Origin: a virus
Lineage: Duplodnaviria > Heunggongvirae > Uroviricota > Caudoviricetes
Length of the DNA: 40,444 nt
Direction: 5' to 3' (one strand)
Virus record (IMG/VR): IMGVR_UViG_2579778961_000003
The translations under genes were made by a program, and so were the position numbers. The notes beneath the pieces are model-generated. The model was not told where the DNA came from and did not search any database. It was given only the letters and a program-made list of their open reading frames with translations. The stretch's first letter is position 1, and the number at the start of each line of letters is the position of its first letter. Positions 27,792-32,392 of the stretch are shown piece by piece.

Positions 27792-28515
27792 AACTGCTGC
27801 CTCCCCATGTGAGATATCGCGGTGCCAGTTCGCGCAGGATGCGCTGCGGATAATGGCGGTTCTCCCGCCAGCTGGCCGCATTGCGTCCGGCATTCACCGT
27901 GGCGACATGTCCGAACCAGCGGGTGCTGTCCAGACCTTTCTGTGATGCAAGCCGCCTGTCCCGTTGTACCCAGCCCAGACCACCGTTATAGCCCGACAGT
28001 GTCATGGCCATACGCTCGCAGTCACTGGCGGCGCTGACACGCTGCCACAGCCAGCGGTCATAGCTGACCAGCGCCCGGATAGCCCATGCCGGATTAAACG
28101 GCTCACGACTGCTCAGCATCGGTATCAACTGGCTTATCCAGTCGGCAGTGGCAGGCATGAACTGCGCCAGTCCCTGAGCGCCAGCCGGCGAGATCGCATC
28201 AGGTCGCCAGCCGCTTTCCTGATGCAGTTGCGCGGCGAAATCGGCCACCGGCGCAGACAGTCCCCATTCAAGCCGGGCATTACGGATCACATCATCGCGA
28301 TACTGCAGCGCAGCCTGCGGAGGTTGTGCTGCGCATGCCTGGCTGAAAAAGCCGCCACACCAGAGCAACATTGCGACAAAGAATACCCATGCCATATGAA
28401 CCAGAAAGGTCCCGGCGCGGACTGACAGGCGTTCGGTTCTGATGAAGACCCGAAAGGCTTCGAAAGCCAGTTTCAGGGACATGCATACAATCCAGGTGAT
28501 CTGCGGCCAGTTCAT
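27775..28515 (-). CDS. Endolysin, lytic transglycosylase (SLT domain)
   Basis: SLT motif ...QESGWRPDAISPAGAQGLAQFMP...; hydrophobic N-terminal region may be a signal-anchor; start codon uncertain (28515 or 28395). Confidence 0.85.
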   Translation of the reverse strand: MNWPQITWIVCMSLKLAFEAFRVFIRTERLSVRAGTFLVHMAWVFFVAMLLWCGGFFSQACAAQPPQAALQYRDDVIRNARLEWGLSAPVADFAAQLHQESGWRPDAISPAGAQGLAQFMPATADWISQLIPMLSSREPFNPAWAIRALVSYDRWLWQRVSAASDCERMAMTLSGYNGGLGWVQRDRRLASQKGLDSTRWFGHVATVNAGRNAASWRENRHYPQRILRELAPRYLTWGGSSCVASG

Positions 28516-28517
28516 GA

Positions 28518-28868
28518 TTAAAGCCCCATCGCAACAGCCAGGCAGACCGCTGCAACAATCAGTGCACGGCGGATTAACGCAGCAGAAAACACCAGGTGAA
28601 GGCCGGTCTGTACCGGGAAACGCCCTTCAGCCATCAGCCTGTCGTCATGTTTCAGGTACTGACCGGGACGGGCTTTGGGGAAGAGCGAACGGTCAAGCCA
28701 GTAACCCAGCACTGCTGCCAGCGTGATGAGTGCCAGCTTGTAGATCACAACAGGCAGCTGCTGTGGTGAGACCAGAGCGATGGTGCCCAGCAACAGCACT
28801 GAGGTCAGCAGCCAGCCGCTGAGGCGAGGTTTTTTAACAGGGGGAATGAATTTTTTCAGGTTTTTCAT
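28518..28868 (-). CDS. Putative holin (3 predicted TM segments)
   Basis: Start at ATG 28868 with AAGGAG RBS; three hydrophobic segments; first gene of the lysis cassette immediately upstream of the endolysin. Confidence 0.55.
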   Translation of the reverse strand: MKNLKKFIPPVKKPRLSGWLLTSVLLLGTIALVSPQQLPVVIYKLALITLAAVLGYWLDRSLFPKARPGQYLKHDDRLMAEGRFPVQTGLHLVFSAALIRRALIVAAVCLAVAMGL

Positions 28869-28998
28869 GTGTGTCTCCTTATCTGGTGGAGACAGCATCA
28901 CAAATACAGGGCGCGAAGGATTTTAAAGCGCGTTAAGAGAGCCGGGGATACGGGATGTGCAGGATAAACGATGAATTATTCACAGAGGAGAATACGAT

Positions 28999-29727
28999 AT
29001 GACGCAGACACTGAATCCGGTCATCACTGTCACCGTGTCCGGTCCTGTGGGCAGCGGTAAAAGTTACGTACTGGCGCGAATAGAGGAAGTGGTGAAACAG
29101 GAATTCGGAAACAGCGTCATTGTCGACGCCGCAGACGTGGACGGTGAGCGCCGTATGAGTGGGGATGATCTGAGCACATGGCAGAAACCACGGGCTGGCA
29201 CAGTGATCAGGCTGGAGGAATACACGGGACAGGGCCTGTTGTCATACGGCGAGGAGCGTATCTGTCGGACGAATGAGCTGCTGGATGTTATATGCCCCAC
29301 GGGCCGGCAACCCTGGATACTGCCCGATGCACTGCATGCCACCATTGCGGCACTGATGACAGTTTACGATCAGGAGCTGCTCATGAAGGAGTTACGTAAA
29401 CTCACTGGTCAGTCAACAGAATGTTGTTCGTCCCCGAAGTACGGCAAACAGGAACACATCCCGATTAACCAGCCTCCCCGGTTCTTCGACGAATACCTTC
29501 TGACACCGGAAAATAAAGCTGAGCATGAAGAGATCAAAGCGGCGTTGTTCCGGGAAATCAGGAAGATTGCTGAAATGCAACTGGAGGGCGGGCTGGACAG
29601 AGTGATGGCGAGAGGAGAATGGGCATCGCTGTTTGAAAGAGTTTCCCCGGAATTACTTCCCCTCGCACTGGCTATCGGGATTATGCAGACAGCGGATAAA
29701 CCTCACTTACGTTCATTAAACACGTAA
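28999..29727 (+). CDS. P-loop NTPase/kinase-like protein of unknown function
   Basis: Walker A motif VSGPVGSGKS at residues 13-22; GAGGAG RBS; lies in the accessory island between the late operon and the repressor. Confidence 0.6.
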   Translation: MTQTLNPVITVTVSGPVGSGKSYVLARIEEVVKQEFGNSVIVDAADVDGERRMSGDDLSTWQKPRAGTVIRLEEYTGQGLLSYGEERICRTNELLDVICPTGRQPWILPDALHATIAALMTVYDQELLMKELRKLTGQSTECCSSPKYGKQEHIPINQPPRFFDEYLLTPENKAEHEEIKAALFREIRKIAEMQLEGGLDRVMARGEWASLFERVSPELLPLALAIGIMQTADKPHLRSLNT

Positions 29728-30107
29728 CGCATAATCCGGGATACGCATTCAGCGATGACTGCATTTTCACCGGTTTTTACTGCATCCAGAAGTGACTCTT
29801 TAAATGGTACGGGCCGGGGCTGCAGAAAGGTCGGCATGGCATTGAGCAGACAGAGCGTTTTTTCCGTGAGGACGACATCAGCCGCTCCCACAGCCAGCAA
29901 CTGAGAGTAACGAATATAGCTGTTATCCCGAAGCCATATCAGCGTATCAATAAAACACCGGCACTTTTTCTGGTCGTGATCAACCTGGTCCGGGATATCG
30001 AAAAAACCAGAATAAATCAAAACCTGAGGTGCCGGATGCGTGTTCAGTAATCGGCAGAATATTTTGCCGGTGAGTACATAAAAATCATCATTTAAGGAGT
30101 GCATCAT
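29703..30107 (-). CDS. Hypothetical protein
   Basis: 134 aa ORF convergent with and overlapping the 3' end of the P-loop gene by 25 bp; weak RBS; lower-GC region. Confidence 0.4.
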   Translation of the reverse strand: MMHSLNDDFYVLTGKIFCRLLNTHPAPQVLIYSGFFDIPDQVDHDQKKCRCFIDTLIWLRDNSYIRYSQLLAVGAADVVLTEKTLCLLNAMPTFLQPRPVPFKESLLDAVKTGENAVIAECVSRIMRYVFNERK

Positions 30108-30321
30108 GAATCCCCGATTAACGTTAACAGAACATCAGCGCCGTGCTGAAGCAGTGAACAATGTTCTGGAAGATATTATCCGGTTATACCGCGGAGAACT
30201 GAGTGTCTGTCGTGCCGCTTTTCATTTTCAGGGAATACAAAAGCAGTTTGATACTTCTGTTTTTGCAGAAGGTATTACTTATGCCCTGGACCGGATAAGG
30301 TCAGAAAATCGCCCCGGATAA
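30106..30321 (+). CDS. Hypothetical small protein
   Basis: 71 aa ORF with strong AAGGAG RBS 6 nt upstream of the ATG. Confidence 0.5.
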   Translation: MNPRLTLTEHQRRAEAVNNVLEDIIRLYRGELSVCRAAFHFQGIQKQFDTSVFAEGITYALDRIRSENRPG

Positions 30322-30377
30322 TCCCTAAACCACATTAACAGAAATCCCGCCATCCCTGCCGCATCATGAAAGAACGA

Positions 30378-30405
30378 CCAGCCCGGCACCCGAAAGCCGG
30401 GCTGG
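30378..30405. other. Perfect 10-bp stem hairpin (possible terminator or RNA structure)
   Basis: ccagcccggc-acccgaaa-gccgggctgg; no strong T-tract on the plus strand, modest T-rich run on the minus strand. Confidence 0.4.
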
Positions 30406-30511
30406 TCATCGCCCCACAGGAATGCGCTGTGAGCCGACCAAGGTTCAGTCAGTCTCGCGAGACCTGACCAGACTGCCATATTTTTTAATAATTGTAAAAG
30501 GCTTGCAGATT

Positions 30512-31276
30512 ATGAAAATGCAGACATTACCCATCGTGCCGTGGATTGGTGGCAAACGCCGCCTTGCAAAACACATTCTGCCGCTGTTTCCGGCGCATGA
30601 ATGTTATGTGGAGCCGTTTTGTGGGGCAGCAGCGCTCTATTTTCTTAAGACACCCGGCAAGATCGAAGTCATCAATGATATCAACGGTGAACTGGTGAAT
30701 CTGTACCGGGTGGTAAAGCATCACCTGGAAGAATTTGTCCGCCAGTTCAAATGGGCGCTGGTCAGCCGTCAGATCTACAAATGGCTGCAGATCACCCCGG
30801 AAGAAACACTGACGGATATCCAGCGTGCGGCACGGTTCTACTACCTTCAGAAGCAGGCGTTTGGCGGCAAGGTGGCAGAGCACAGCTTCGGTACCTCCAC
30901 CACATCCCCGCCACGCTTCAACCTGCTACGTATTGAAGAAGAACTGTCAGCGGCACACCTGCGGCTTTCCAGAACAGTCATAGAACACATGGACTGGCAA
31001 CAGTGCATTGAGCGTTATGATCGTCCGCACACGCTGTTCTACTGCGACCCACCGTACCTGGGTACGGAAGGCTATGGTGTGGATTTTCCTGAAGGGAACT
31101 ACTCGCGGCTGGCAGAGCTGGCCCGGTGCATCAGAGGAAAAATGATAATTTCGGTGAACGACATCCCGCAGATGCGCGAGGTGTTCACTGGACTGAACAT
31201 ACAGACAGTGAATATCAACTACAGTCTGGCGGGTAAACCCACGCCGCGCCGTGAACTGCTAATCTGCAACTTCTGA
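30512..31276 (+). CDS. DNA N6-adenine methyltransferase (Dam-like, orphan)
   Basis: Motif I EPFCGAAALYF and motif IV DPPY (LFYCDPPYLGT); no adjacent endonuclease candidate; start chosen at ATG 30512 rather than ORF-track 30422. Confidence 0.9.
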   Translation: MKMQTLPIVPWIGGKRRLAKHILPLFPAHECYVEPFCGAAALYFLKTPGKIEVINDINGELVNLYRVVKHHLEEFVRQFKWALVSRQIYKWLQITPEETLTDIQRAARFYYLQKQAFGGKVAEHSFGTSTTSPPRFNLLRIEEELSAAHLRLSRTVIEHMDWQQCIERYDRPHTLFYCDPPYLGTEGYGVDFPEGNYSRLAELARCIRGKMIISVNDIPQMREVFTGLNIQTVNINYSLAGKPTPRRELLICNF

Positions 31277-31283
31277 AACAAAA

Positions 31284-31306
31284 CCGGAAAGCACAATGCT
31301 TTCCGG
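31284..31306 (-). terminator. Probable terminator of the repressor transcript
   Basis: Hairpin ccggaaagc-acaat-gctttccgg; on the minus strand it is followed by TTTTGTTTC. Confidence 0.5.
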
Positions 31307-31392
31307 TAAACCAAACAACTTCCACTATGTCACTGGCGATGTTTTCTGAAAGCATCCAGATCAACCACCTGTCCTTTGTGTCCGGGTCAGTA

Positions 31393-31749
31393 TCAGCCTG
31401 CGATTTTTCCTGGTTTTGGCTGAGTATAGAATCGCCCAATCTCAAGAAATGAGCGTTGTTGGTCTGGTGTCATGTCGTCAAAAGTATCTATTAGTTTTTG
31501 TTTTTCTGGGGAAATTTGATTCTGGTTTCTAGTCATACCATCTGTGCTCATTCCAGTGAGCAACCAATTTACATCAACATTAAACTCTTGATGCATCTTT
31601 AACAGAAACTCCCCTCCAGGCATCGCCTTTCCATTTTCAATCTGACTGATACCACCATTAGAAATACCTAAACGAGCTGCAAATTCTCTCTGGTTCAACC
31701 CTGCTTTCTTCCTCACAGAAATAACGCGCTCTCCTATATCTTTGCTCAT
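31393..31749 (-). CDS. Prophage repressor (HTH XRE family; Mu c-equivalent)
   Basis: N-terminal HTH (LNQREFAARLGISNGGISQIENGK), divergently transcribed from the early operon, operator palindrome in the intergenic region. Confidence 0.75.
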   Translation of the reverse strand: MSKDIGERVISVRKKAGLNQREFAARLGISNGGISQIENGKAMPGGEFLLKMHQEFNVDVNWLLTGMSTDGMTRNQNQISPEKQKLIDTFDDMTPDQQRSFLEIGRFYTQPKPGKIAG

Positions 31750-31789
31750 AAAAGTGAATCTCTATCTTGATATGCTCATAATTATGAGC
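31743..31789. promoter_or_regulatory. Operator/early promoter region with 18-bp perfect palindrome
   Basis: TGCTCATAATTATGAGCA at 31772-31789 and a TGCTCATA half-site at 31743-31750 overlapping the repressor start codon. Confidence 0.6.
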
Positions 31790-31842
31790 AATAATCTAAC
31801 ACATATAAGGCAAACATCATTGCATCAACAAAGGAGACAACG

Positions 31843-32031
31843 ATGACTGCAGAACAAGTCAAAGCTCTCTTCCGCCAGCGCGGGATCACTTTCACCCGCT
31901 GGGCAGAAGAAAACGGCTACAACCGCAATGAGGTATACCGCGTTCTCAACGGGCAGACCAAAGCCCGTTACGGTAAATCCCATGAAATCGCCGTGAAGTT
32001 GGGACTGAAATCAACAGCTCAGGCGGCCTAA
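31843..32031 (+). CDS. Small DNA-binding early regulator (Ner/Cro-equivalent)
   Basis: 62 aa basic protein, first rightward gene after the operator, AAAGGAG RBS; assignment by position rather than clear Ner motif match. Confidence 0.5.
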   Translation: MTAEQVKALFRQRGITFTRWAEENGYNRNEVYRVLNGQTKARYGKSHEIAVKLGLKSTAQAA

Positions 32032-32077
32032 ATATTTTGAGTCTTTGTAAAAGGTTATCACATATCGCAAAAGAGGT

Positions 32078-32392
32078 ATGCAGATGAGTAAGACGAATGT
32101 TTCAAGCTCCGGCAGTCGCATCCTCCGGGTACTCAAAGCGCTGCGCGGTCATGCCCTGAACGGTATTTCTAACGGTGAACTGGCGACAGCACTGCACGAG
32201 TCACCGGCAAACATCAACCGGGCACTCAACACCCTCATTGAAGAAGGGCTGGCTCTGAAACTGGAGAACGGACGTTTTGCACCGGGCATCCAGTTACTGC
32301 AGATCGCCATGGCCCACAGTAACGAGATGGCACGTGCACAGGATCGTATTAACGAAATTAACCAACGTGTCATTTCAGGTAGTCGTTTGTAA
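32078..32392 (+). CDS. Winged-helix DNA-binding protein (putative transcriptional regulator)
   Basis: 104 aa; HTH-like segment ISNGELATALHESPANINRALNTLIEEGL; AAGAGG RBS. Confidence 0.45.
   Translation: MQMSKTNVSSSGSRILRVLKALRGHALNGISNGELATALHESPANINRALNTLIEEGLALKLENGRFAPGIQLLQIAMAHSNEMARAQDRINEINQRVISGSRL

What the first reader, a model, noticed from the sequence alone, without database searches (positions are those of the whole stretch)
28999..30405. Accessory island with a P-loop protein and two small unknown ORFs at the early/late divergence point
Three ORFs sit between the late operon and the Dam gene, in lower-GC sequence than the structural genes: a 242-aa protein with an N-terminal Walker A motif (GPVGSGKS), a convergent 134-aa ORF overlapping its 3' end by 25 bp, and a 71-aa ORF with a strong RBS whose start codon overlaps the divergent start of the 134-aa ORF. 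This is the position where transposable phages carry cargo, and I cannot assign the set to a system I know; it is a candidate toxin-antitoxin, abortive-infection or other defence module.
Basis: inference. Interest (0 to 1): 0.75.

Follow-up and report, generated by a model that had tools for sequence, protein, structure and literature searches.

The report
Orphan antisense-nested prophage gene cassette
Three real but functionally unknown genes lie in the variable spot of a common E. coli Mu-like prophage; two of them form a head-to-head pair with overlapping start codons that also occurs in P2-like phages, and nothing yet shows that the set is a defence or toxin system.

Summary
All three ORFs exist at the stated coordinates, with the stated overlaps, in a BcepMu-like transposable prophage found in about 12% of complete E. 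coli genomes. All three are conserved as proteins.

The "three-gene P-loop island" is not one unit.
- **ORF A (242 aa)** is a mosaic. Its first 76 residues are a minimal Walker-A domain. In related prophages this domain is always the first gene divergent from the lysis operon, with or without B and C. Its last ~68 residues (A-Ct) are a separate module, which stands alone as an 89-aa gene in Serratia.
- **A-Ct, B and C** travel together in three diverged prophage lineages.
- **B with a divergent 63–73-aa partner** recurs in more than 40 P2-like phages next to cos. The partners share start codons, usually through a CATG palindrome.

No protein matches any Pfam, NCBIfam, PADLOC, PDB or Rfam family. 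The AlphaFold models were poor.

My best reading, held at low confidence: B is nested antisense inside an A→C→Dam transcription unit. This would make B expression (prophage state) and A/C/Dam expression (lytic state) mutually exclusive. B would be the effector, and C and A-Ct its partners. Defence, regulation and counter-defence all remain open.

The parts
28902..28998 (.). Divergent regulatory region between the holin gene (late operon) and A. It contains the conserved core TTTTAAAGCGCGTTAA at 28921-28936, a TTAAAG/CTTTAA-type dyad.
   Evidence: The core is invariant in 7 BcepMu-like lineages. It lies about 61 bp from the holin ATG and about 70 bp from the A ATG. Calling it a Mor/C-type late-activator site that may fire in both directions is an inference.
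28999..29727 (+). ORF A, a 242-aa mosaic protein (PHROG 3787, function unknown).
   Evidence: E. coli alleles of 242, 247, 182 and 158 aa differ by whole modules.
28999..29226 (+). A-N, a minimal P-loop domain (residues 1-76). The Walker A motif is GPVGSGKS. G15, G18, G20, K21, S22, E50, D57 and W61 are invariant.
   Evidence: An exhaustive HMMER search found 60 representative proteins (one per 50%-identity cluster) with E-value up to 0.001. About 40 share only this domain at 33-59% identity, in proteins of 73-364 aa. The best PDB match is a designed 'phosphate-loop protein', 6c2u, followed by generic ABC ATPases.
29521..29727 (+). A-Ct, the C-terminal module (about residues 175-242; motif QL..(D)(W/R)V..R..W..L).
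   Evidence: It is homologous to a stand-alone 89-aa Serratia ORF and to the C-termini of P0057 and P0067. It is always convergent with B and overlaps the 3' end of B.
29703..29727 (.). 25-bp convergent overlap between the 3' end of A and the 3' end of B.
   Evidence: The equivalent overlap is 37 bp in Serratia and 54 bp in L101.
29703..30107 (-). ORF B, a 134-aa all-helical protein that is neutral to acidic (PHROG 2266, function unknown).
   Evidence: Identity is 53% to the Serratia homologue, 32% to the L101 homologue and about 31% to 143-aa proteins of P2-like phages. The AF2 model has pLDDT 61 and finds no fold match.
30057..30068 (.). GAATATTTTGCC, lying inside B (codons G-K-I-F read on the other strand), 38-49 nt upstream of the C start.
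   Evidence: It is identical at all four synonymous positions in the E. coli, Serratia and L101 lineages. It is a candidate promoter or 5'-UTR element embedded in B.
30105..30108 (.). CATG palindrome that holds both start codons (B on the - strand, C on the + strand).
   Evidence: The same arrangement is present in all 62 loci with a B homologue listed, and the divergent small ORF is found in every one. The one exception, found later, is the L101 lineage, where the two coding regions overlap by 8 nt without sharing a start.
30106..30321 (+). ORF C, a 71-aa protein (PHROG 4490, function unknown) with the Shine-Dalgarno sequence AAGGAG at 30094-30099.
   Evidence: Homologues lie in the same position in Serratia (73 aa) and L101 (65 aa). 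C is not homologous to the 63-64-aa partners in P2-like phages (hhalign probability 0.2%).
30366..30407 (-). Intrinsic-terminator-like hairpin for - strand transcription. The 12-bp perfect stem is 30376-30387/30396-30407, followed on the - strand by GTTCTTTCAT.
   Evidence: It is conserved, with changes in the stem, and keeps a T-run on the same strand in Serratia and L101. It would shield B from - strand transcription coming from the repressor/Dam side.
30512..31276 (+). Dam (D12-class N6-adenine methylase). This is context: it is probably the last gene of an A→C→Dam transcription unit.
   Evidence: Pfam MethyltransfD12, E-value 9e-29. In variants with B deleted, A, C and Dam are co-directional with a 53-bp gap between A and C.

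Best explanation
The region is the variable accessory spot of a BcepMu-like transposable prophage, and it holds two separable things.

1. **ORF A belongs to a lineage-specific gene family.** In enterobacterial BcepMu-like prophages this family is always the first gene read away from the lysis/late promoter. Its N-terminal 76 residues are a conserved minimal Walker-A domain, and its C-terminal part is assembled from swappable modules.
2. **The last module of A (A-Ct), B and C form a three-part cassette.** Its core is the B/C pair, two genes placed head to head with shared start codons.

**Proposed working (inferred).** A, C and Dam are read as one + strand unit from the bidirectional late-promoter region during lytic growth. 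B lies entirely antisense inside that unit, on the strand of the repressor gene, behind its own - strand terminator. B mRNA and the A-C-Dam transcript are therefore fully complementary. The ribosome-binding sites and start codons of B and C pair with each other. Transcription of one side should silence the other through polymerase collision and RNA duplex formation, so B is on in the prophage and off after induction. B would be the active factor of the lysogen (exclusion of other phages, or modulation of the host). C and A-Ct would be its partners or antagonists, made when the phage itself needs B switched off.

**What is shown:** the gene geometry, its conservation, the co-occurrence of the parts, and selection on all three proteins. 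**What is inferred:** the transcripts, the timing, the protein interactions and the phenotype.
For: - **Geometry.**
- **Prophage identity.** The window is 100% identical to Escherichia phage PhiKM (Bcepmuvirus).
- **A-N is always at the same site.** It is next to the holin gene in seven lineages, whatever lies downstream.
- **A-Ct, B and C co-occur.** They are together in E. coli, Serratia and L101-L103. B and C are absent wherever the A homologue lacks A-Ct (L016, L023, L104-L106).
- **B and C co-occur in E. coli.** B is found at 529 places and C at 531 places, each in 499 genomes; the prophage lysis genes are found in 636 genomes.
- **The B-plus-partner pair recurs in P2-like phages.** A CATG at the B start, and a divergent 63-86-aa ORF reading from it, are present in all 44 P2-like loci examined. 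This includes phages Midge, FSL SP-004 and ST147-VIM1phi7.1, where the pair sits beside cos and the portal gene.
- **Both are true proteins.** There is abundant synonymous change with conserved amino acids; pN/pS is below 1 in E. coli.
- **Embedded nucleotide-level conservation in the 5' part of B**.
- **A - strand terminator upstream of the cassette is conserved in three lineages**.
- **A conserved dyad sits midway between the holin gene and A**.
- **In natural B-deletion variants A, C and Dam are co-directional and closely spaced**.
- **B is lost or truncated in some otherwise intact cassettes**. That is tolerable for an effector but not for an antidote.
Against: - There are no transcript data. 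Consensus scans found no convincing sigma-70 promoter for A, B or C.
- No protein has a recognisable fold or family, so 'effector' and 'partner' are only labels.
- In P2-like phages the orientation relative to the late P-Q operon is the opposite: read-through from the portal gene would be sense to B. The prophage/lytic assignment therefore does not transfer simply.
- None of the alternative cargoes at this site in BcepMu-like phages is a known defence gene.
- The P2-like partner is not homologous to C.
- In L101 the start codons do not share bases, so the CATG itself is not essential.
Confidence: 0.35

Rival explanations
1. The cassette is a phage-internal regulatory switch. B is a small DNA-binding regulator (possibly winged-helix-like) and C (or C2 in P2-like phages) is its divergently transcribed antagonist. 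Together they time Dam and/or late-gene expression, and they do not act on other phages.
For: - B and its partners evolve at about the backbone rate and are almost confined to phages.
- They always sit beside landmark control regions: the late promoter and Dam leader here, and cos/portal in P2-like phages.
- Conserved palindromes lie in the C-Dam spacer: GTCTCGCGAGAC at 30452-30463 and CACAG-N7-CTGTG at 30415-30431.
- The Midge record calls its B homologue a 'putative transcriptional regulator', and UniRef calls the Serratia homologue 'DUF2513'.
- The B motif ...L..NGYI.Y...V.LTEK.L..LN resembles recognition-helix/wing segments of winged-helix proteins. This resemblance is from my own recollection and was not tested.
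Against: - There is no HTH or DUF2513 hit in Pfam at E-value up to 1 for B or for any homologue.
- There is no PDB sequence match.
- The AF2 model is all-helical with no wing.
- B is neutral to acidic, with pI 4.7-6.8.
- The cassette is absent from many closely related, apparently complete prophages, and B alone can be deleted. It is therefore dispensable for the phage cycle.
Confidence: 0.25
2. The + strand genes form a counter-defence or host-takeover operon. A, C and Dam are made early or late in lytic growth to protect phage DNA (Dam methylation) and to neutralise host or rival-prophage defences. The small acidic proteins act as inhibitors, and the shuffled C-terminal modules of A are alternative inhibitor domains.
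For: - A and C are co-directional and closely linked with Dam.
- The A family shows module shuffling on a constant N-terminal domain, as expected for proteins in an arms race.
- A, A-Ct and several B and C homologues are acidic, soluble and small.
- A stand-alone A-N homologue lies among small ORFs of a phage unrelated to the BcepMu-like backbone (locus L017).
Against: - No protein resembles a known anti-restriction or anti-defence protein. An HHpred note in the Midge record pointed to T7 gp5.5/5.7, but hhalign gives a probability below 1%.
- This reading does not explain why B is kept antisense inside the operon, or why the B-plus-partner pair stands alone in P2-like phages.
Confidence: 0.15
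3. A is a P-loop NTPase toxin or sensor, and with B and C it forms a three-gene toxin-antitoxin, abortive-infection or other defence system.
For: - The Walker A motif is intact and invariant in most family members.
- There are weak sub-threshold hits to AAA_30, KAP_NTPase, Zeta_toxin, Csx3-AAA and HerA.
- The site is variable.
- A preprint reports that 15-32% of unknown genes in P2 hotspots are predicted to be antiviral (10.64898/2026.02.27.708500, read).
Against: - All ATPase hits cover only the Walker A helix and fall below the curated cut-offs.
- The domain is 76 residues long, and some members have a degenerate motif (GAESSGKN).
- A-N and B/C occur independently of each other.
- No PADLOC model matches B, C, A-Ct or any P2-like homologue.
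- The pair is not among the systems tested by Rousset et al. 2022.
- The gene order is not that of a type II TA operon, and no protein is a small hydrophobic type I toxin.
Confidence: 0.1
4. The ORFs are decaying or selfish filler with no current function.
For: - Truncated and deleted alleles exist: a 158-aa A, a 182-aa A, deleted B, B with an internal stop, and frameshifted C variants.
Against: - Protein-level conservation extends across genera and across two phage families, with many synonymous changes.
- pN/pS is below 1.
- The intact cassette is present in 499 of 5426 complete E. coli genomes.
Confidence: 0.05

Closest known systems
Cargo of the cos-proximal hotspot of P2-like phages (old, tin and other anti-phage systems; Rousset et al. 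2022, PMC9122126)
   Same: Homologues of B, each with a divergent small partner, lie between replication gene A and cos/portal Q. That is exactly the hotspot described in the paper.
   Different: The pair is not among the validated or tested systems and has no PADLOC model. In the 44 loci examined it sits directly beside cos, and the variable genes (Fic, DinI, an HTH protein plus a 'polymerase') lie between it and gene A. Within this subgroup it therefore behaves more like a conserved neighbour of the cargo than like swapped cargo.
Antisense-coupled gene arrangements: IS10 pIN/pOUT, 'excludons', 'noncontiguous operons' (from my own knowledge of Simons & Kleckner 1983; Sesto et al. 2013; Saenz-Lahoya et al. 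2019)
   Same: Genes or promoters face each other, so the 5' ends of the transcripts, including the ribosome-binding sites, must be complementary. One gene (B) lies on the opposite strand inside a run of co-directional genes (A, C, Dam).
   Different: Both partners here encode conserved proteins and share their start codons. No transcript, RNase III dependence or mutual repression has been measured.
Minimal or ancestral P-loop (beta-loop-alpha) elements and generic P-loop NTPases
   Same: A-N has the order beta strand, GxxGxGKS, helix, beta strand. Its best PDB sequence match is a designed 'phosphate-loop protein' (6c2u, E-value 3.5e-6), followed by ABC ATPases.
   Different: The domain is only about 70-76 residues with three predicted strands and no clear Walker B strand. 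It falls below every Pfam and NCBIfam ATPase cut-off. Nucleotide binding is untested.
Lysogen-expressed exclusion genes next to phage repressor genes (lambda rexAB, BcepMu gp18; from my own knowledge)
   Same: B is on the repressor strand in the immunity-proximal variable region. The alternative E. coli variant carries two membrane proteins directly downstream of its repressor.
   Different: B is separated from the repressor gene by the antisense of Dam and by two terminator-like hairpins. It is soluble and has no similarity to Rex or to any exclusion protein.

Membership tests
P-loop NTPase (ORF A) | Walker A motif GxxxxGK[ST] after a beta strand | tested here: met
   GPVGSGKS at residues 15-22. 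G15, G18, G20, K21 and S22 are invariant in 10 diverse family members. A few relatives have GAESSGKN.
P-loop NTPase (ORF A) | Walker B acidic residue on a core strand, and a complete alpha/beta core (five or more strands) | tested here: inconclusive
   The conserved domain is 76 residues with 3 predicted strands. D43 (in VIVD) is not conserved, while E50 and D57 are invariant. The AF2 model has pLDDT 44 and cannot be used.
Named ATPase families (AAA_30, KAP, Zeta toxin, ABC, HerA, Csx3-AAA) | A profile match above the curated threshold that extends beyond the P-loop | tested here: not met
   Best Pfam score is 16.5 bits against a cut-off of 27. Zeta_toxin scores 12 against 22.3. All matches cover only residues about 3-50.
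Type II toxin-antitoxin system | A co-directional two-gene operon with a known toxin or antitoxin fold | tested here: not met
   A/B are convergent and B/C are divergent. There is no family hit for any of the three proteins.
Type II toxin-antitoxin system | Spread across plasmids and chromosomal islands as an autonomous addiction module | tested here: not met
   A tblastn search with B finds only 3 of 72,556 plasmid records. All other contexts are BcepMu-like or P2-like phages.
Type I toxin-antitoxin system | A small hydrophobic membrane toxin controlled by an overlapping antisense RNA | tested here: not met
   The 5' overlap geometry is present, but C, C2 and B are hydrophilic (GRAVY -0.5 to 0.05) with no hydrophobic segment.
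Known anti-phage defence systems (PADLOC-DB v2; Rousset 2022 systems) | A match to a system protein model, or identity with a tested locus | tested here: not met
   There are no hits for B, C, A-Ct or the P2-like B and C2. A has only Walker A noise. The motifs are absent from the supplementary tables of PMC9122126.
DUF2513 / winged-helix regulators (ORF B) | A Pfam PF10711 or HTH-clan profile match, or a winged-helix fold | tested here: not met
T7 gp5.5 / gp5.7-like proteins (lead from the Midge annotation) | Profile similarity to T7 gp5.5 or gp5.7 | tested here: not met
   hhalign of the B alignment against gp5.5 gives probability 0.08%, and against gp5.7 gives 0.6%. The templates were single sequences, so this is a weak test.
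Noncontiguous operon / excludon | An opposite-strand gene embedded between co-directional genes, with overlapping ends | tested here: met
   B overlaps A by 25 bp at its 3' end and overlaps C at its start codon. A, C and Dam are all on the + strand. The arrangement is conserved in Serratia and L101.
Noncontiguous operon / excludon | A single long transcript spanning the embedded gene, with reciprocal repression | not testable with these tools
   This needs strand-specific RNA-seq, Northern blots and RNase III mutants.
Variable (cargo) locus of BcepMu-like phages | Unrelated gene content at the same site between conserved flanks | tested here: met
   At least six different gene sets lie between the holin gene and the Dam/repressor region, while the flanking intergenic region is conserved.

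The most novel reading that the evidence does not exclude
B with its head-to-head small partner is a previously undescribed, phage-borne two-gene module. Its shared start codons make a bistable RNA-level toggle, and it acts as a new kind of prophage-encoded exclusion or abortive-infection system. It would have spread between two unrelated temperate phage families (BcepMu-like and P2-like), with A-Ct as a lineage-specific third component that is sometimes fused to a minimal P-loop domain.
Probability: 0.2. Interest if true: 0.7.

Novelty: new variant of a known kind. Interest (0 to 1): 0.5.

Why it matters
**Prevalence.** The prophage lysis genes are found in 636 of 5426 complete E. coli genomes, and the B/C cassette in 499 of them. 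The carriers include strains labelled ST131.

**An unusual layout.** The cassette is one of the few parts of this prophage with no assignable role, and its layout is unusual. Two conserved protein genes share their start codons on opposite strands. One of them lies antisense inside a run of three co-directional genes. The same pair design is kept in P2-like phages, inside a locus known to hold anti-phage systems.

**If the antisense-toggle idea is right,** it would be a compact natural example of mutually exclusive gene expression tied to the lysogeny/lysis decision. It would also be a candidate new exclusion system.

**If the idea is wrong,** the cassette is simply one more set of orphan phage genes.

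**The A family.** The 76-residue Walker-A domain with swappable tails is a small, tractable case for asking what a minimal P-loop can do.

Tried and rejected
**Family libraries.** Pfam, NCBIfam, PADLOC and PHROGs gave only PHROGs of unknown function and sub-threshold Walker A hits.

**Structure.**
- AlphaFold2 with shallow alignments gave pLDDT 61 for B and 44 for A.
- The afdb50 library was unavailable.

**Sequence searches against PDB.** Profiles of A-N, B and C2 gave only generic P-loop matches or nothing.

**Genome-contig scan.** The scan with the A-N alignment was wasted.

**Leads that failed.**
- hhalign of C against the P2-like partner family gave no relationship.
- The T7 gp5.5/5.7 lead from the Midge annotation was not supported.

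**Literature.**
- 'DUF2513' returned no papers.
- Papers on BcepMu or Bcepmuvirus in E. coli say nothing about this locus.
- The tested systems of Rousset 2022, including the 'hp+hp+hp' system, are unrelated proteins.

**RNA and promoters.**
- Rfam found no family in 28400-32100.
- Consensus promoter scans found no convincing conserved sigma-70 promoter for A, B or C.

**Readings rejected.**
- Chance ORFs, because the proteins are conserved.
- A classical type II or type I TA system, because of the geometry, hydropathy and distribution.
- A as a Zeta-toxin or AAA ATPase, because the hits are below cut-off and the domain is too small.
Full report
**Context.** The window is a BcepMu-like transposable prophage of E. 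coli.
- The island DNA is 100% identical to Escherichia phage PhiKM (PQ738613, genus Bcepmuvirus) and to many E. coli chromosomes.
- The late operon (holin, SLT endolysin, spanin, terminase, portal, and so on) runs on the - strand from 28901 downwards.
- To the right lie Dam (30512-31276, +), an HTH repressor (31393-31749, -), a Ner-like gene, and the early operon with the DDE transposase, an ExeA-type B protein, Gam, GemA and Mor (+).
- The finding therefore sits where late and early/immunity transcription diverge.
- The lysis genes are found in 636 of 5426 complete E. coli genomes, at least part of the island in 584, and B and C in 499 each.

- A is 28999-29727 (+, 242 aa, GPVGSGKS at residues 15-22).
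- B is 29703-30107 (-, 134 aa).
- C is 30106-30321 (+, 71 aa, Shine-Dalgarno AAGGAG at 30094-30099).
- A and B overlap by 25 bp at their 3' ends. The B and C start codons share the palindrome CATG at 30105-30108.
- GC falls only over the right two-thirds of the island: 0.50 and then 0.46. The first 500 bp of A are at 0.554, which is the backbone level.

**All three are real genes.**
- RefSeq calls them. Each matches a PHROG of unknown function.
- In E. coli alleles 93-96% identical at the DNA level, pN/pS is 0.26 for A, 0.40 for B and 0.52 for C.
- Protein homologues in the same arrangement occur in a Serratia prophage and in a third lineage whose DNA has diverged completely.

**ORF A is a mosaic.** The word-indexed search found only E. 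coli proteins of at least 62% identity. These included 247-aa, 182-aa (lacking residues 52-124) and about 141-158-aa forms. The exhaustive HMMER search found 60 representative proteins (one per 50%-identity cluster). About 40 of them share only residues 1-76 at 33-59% identity, in proteins of 73 to 364 aa.
- Behind the shared N-terminal domain their sequences carry short modules in different combinations. I recognised at least nine module types by eye.
- The N-terminal domain (A-N) has invariant G15, G18, G20, K21, S22, E50, D57 and W61.
- Its best PDB matches are a designed "phosphate-loop protein" (6c2u) and generic ABC ATPases, and they cover the Walker A helix only.
- Every Pfam, NCBIfam and PADLOC ATPase hit is far below threshold.
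- A few relatives have a degenerate motif, GAESSGKN.
- The last ~68 residues (A-Ct) are homologous to a stand-alone 89-aa ORF in Serratia and to the tails of P0057 and P0067.

**Where the A family sits.** Every member whose locus I could read lies in a BcepMu-like prophage as the first gene divergent from the holin gene. The loci are L012-L016, L023 and L101-L106. The exceptions are a few distant stand-alone A-N-like ORFs in other phages (L017-L019). The 97-bp spacer is conserved in seven lineages. Its invariant core is TTTTAAAG(C/G)GC(G/T)TTAA (28921-28936), a dyad lying about 61 bp from the holin ATG and about 70 bp from the A ATG. I read this as the binding site of the Mor/C-type late activator, possibly serving both directions. 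That reading is an inference.

**What follows A varies.** Downstream of A the lineages carry B/C; or a DUF2441 protein (L106, and KP12); or a 157-aa zinc-ribbon-like protein (L104); or 88-aa and 113-aa proteins (L105); or nothing before Dam (L016). In roughly a hundred E. coli genomes A is truncated and followed by two membrane proteins and a different repressor (L023). BcepMu itself has gp18-gp20 there. None of these alternatives is a known defence gene. The site is thus a genuine variable region, but not a demonstrated defence hotspot.

**The A-Ct/B/C cassette.**
- A-Ct, B and C co-occur in three lineages: E. coli; Serratia (89-aa A-Ct, 139/140-aa B, 73-aa C); and L101-L103 (A-Ct as the tail of a 224-aa A-family protein, 168-aa B, 65-aa C).
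- In all three, A-Ct is convergent with B and overlaps its 3' end, by 25, 37 and 54 bp. C is divergent from the B start.
- Where the A homologue lacks A-Ct, B and C are absent (L016, L023, L104-L106).
- In E. coli, B and C are found at 529 and 531 places.
- B is occasionally deleted down to 18 codons (L013, L025) or carries a stop codon (L034), while A and C stay intact.
- Serratia has no A-N at all. The P-loop domain and the cassette are therefore separable, and their fusion in E. coli is weak "Rosetta-stone" evidence that they work in the same context.

**The B-plus-partner pair in P2-like phages.**
- tblastn and a viral-contig scan found B homologues of about 31% identity and 143 aa in Escherichia phage Midge, Salmonella phage FSL SP-004, Klebsiella phage ST147-VIM1phi7.1 and 41 further P2-like contigs.
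- Every one of these 44 loci has CATG at the B start, and a 63-86-aa ORF (nearly all 63-64 aa) reads away from it.
- These partners form one family (C2; invariant NxDLSSRE core). It is not detectably related to C (hhalign probability 0.2%).
- Both B and C2 show abundant synonymous change with conserved amino acids.
- The pair lies beside cos and the portal gene (41 of 44 loci). The variable genes lie between B and replication gene A.
- That interval is the hotspot shown by Rousset et al. to hold anti-phage systems (PMC9122126). This pair is not among their validated or tested systems. A 2026 preprint estimates that only 15-32% of unknown P2-hotspot genes look antiviral.
- B is almost absent from plasmids, with 3 records.

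**What the geometry implies.** Because the start codons are shared, each gene's Shine-Dalgarno sequence lies in the first codons of the other: AAGGAG for C, and GGGG (30112-30115) for B. Any promoter for one must lie inside the other. The two mRNAs must therefore be complementary across both ribosome-binding sites.
- Nucleotide-level conservation beyond what the protein needs is visible in the 5' part of B.
  - GAATATTTTGCC (30057-30068) is identical at all synonymous sites in three lineages.
  - In P2-like phages, synonymous diversity is lower in the first 60 codons of B than in its 3' half.
- A, C and Dam are co-directional. In the natural B-deletion alleles only 53 bp separate A from C.
- The hairpin 30376-30407 has no T-run on the + strand, but it has one on the - strand in all three lineages. 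It should therefore stop - strand transcription coming from the repressor/Dam side, and should not stop + strand read-through into Dam.
- Taken together, B looks like a gene nested antisense in an A→C→Dam unit. This is the layout called a noncontiguous operon or excludon, and at its 5' end it resembles IS10 pIN/pOUT (from my own knowledge). No transcript evidence was available, and consensus scans gave no convincing promoters.

**Function.** Nothing identifies the proteins.
- The AF2 models were poor: B had pLDDT 61 and was all-helical, and A had pLDDT 44.
- The DUF2513 name and the T7 gp5.5/5.7 note attached to homologues in public records were not reproducible.
- All the proteins are soluble and neutral to acidic.

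My best-supported reading (confidence 0.35) is the antisense toggle described above. B would be the prophage-state factor, and C and A-Ct its lytic-state partners or antagonists. The rivals are:
- a phage-internal regulatory switch controlling Dam or late genes (0.25);
- a counter-defence operon with Dam (0.15);
- decaying filler (0.05).

The tolerated loss of B fits B as an effector rather than an antidote. The opposite orientation of the pair relative to the late operon in P2-like phages is the main weakness of the prophage/lytic assignment.

**Verdict.** The finding is real and is correctly described as unassignable, but its parsing needs revision. It is not a three-gene P-loop system. It is a mosaic backbone-associated gene (A) whose tail belongs to a separate cassette, A-Ct/B/C. 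The core of that cassette is a head-to-head gene pair shared with P2-like phages. The cassette is an uncharacterised variant of phage accessory cargo with an unusual, conserved antisense architecture. It is of moderate interest, and it is directly testable by RNA-seq of a lysogen and by simple deletion and cloning experiments.

Noticed in passing
window 30322-30511: The non-coding spacer between C and Dam is conserved across E. coli, Serratia and L101, even though the C proteins are only 20-30% identical. It holds a - strand terminator hairpin (30376-30407, with its T-run at 30366-30375 on the - strand), CACAG-N7-CTGTG (30415-30431) and the palindrome GTCTCGCGAGAC (30452-30463). The palindrome lies beside predicted back-to-back promoters at 30464-30492 (+) and 30518-30491 (-). 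This could be a small - strand RNA of about 110 nt or a regulatory leader or operator for Dam. There is no Rfam match.
   Followed up: partly
window 28902-28998: The spacer between the holin gene and A is conserved in seven BcepMu-like lineages. Its invariant dyad core is TTTTAAAG(C/G)GC(G/T)TTAA at 28921-28936. It is probably the binding site of the Mor/C-type late activator, and it is placed symmetrically enough to drive both the lysis operon and A.
   Followed up: partly
L023 4600-7230 (E. coli AVS0575); about 100 E. coli genomes: There is an alternative version of the same prophage. A is cut to 158 aa (annotated 'ABC transporter ATPase'), and there is no B, C or Dam. Instead, two predicted membrane proteins (193 and 328 aa) lie directly downstream of a different HTH repressor on the repressor strand. 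This layout is typical of lysogen-expressed exclusion genes.
   Followed up: partly
L013 5741-5800, L025 3343-3397, L034 (B codon 41): Natural alleles exist in which B is deleted to 18 codons or carries an in-frame stop codon while A, C and Dam remain intact. These are useful natural knockouts for phenotype comparison.
   Followed up: yes
L017 4989-5240 and proteins P0060, P0084, P0093: The 76-residue Walker-A domain also exists as a stand-alone protein of 78-92 aa. One copy (L017) lies among small ORFs in a phage unrelated to the BcepMu-like backbone. It is therefore an independent small phage domain and not merely the head of ORF A.
   Followed up: partly
L106 4242-4808 and L011 4059-4625: A DUF2441 protein (188 aa; 52% identical between an unidentified host and Klebsiella phage KP12) occupies the B/C position in other BcepMu-like prophages. 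Its function is unknown and it has no PADLOC hit.
   Followed up: no
window 29913-29942 (- strand): A promoter-like site (CTGATA-18-TATATT, 9 of 12 matches) lies inside B and points towards the antisense of A. I did not check whether it is conserved. It may be chance: the scan found 5 sites against 3.5 expected.
   Followed up: no
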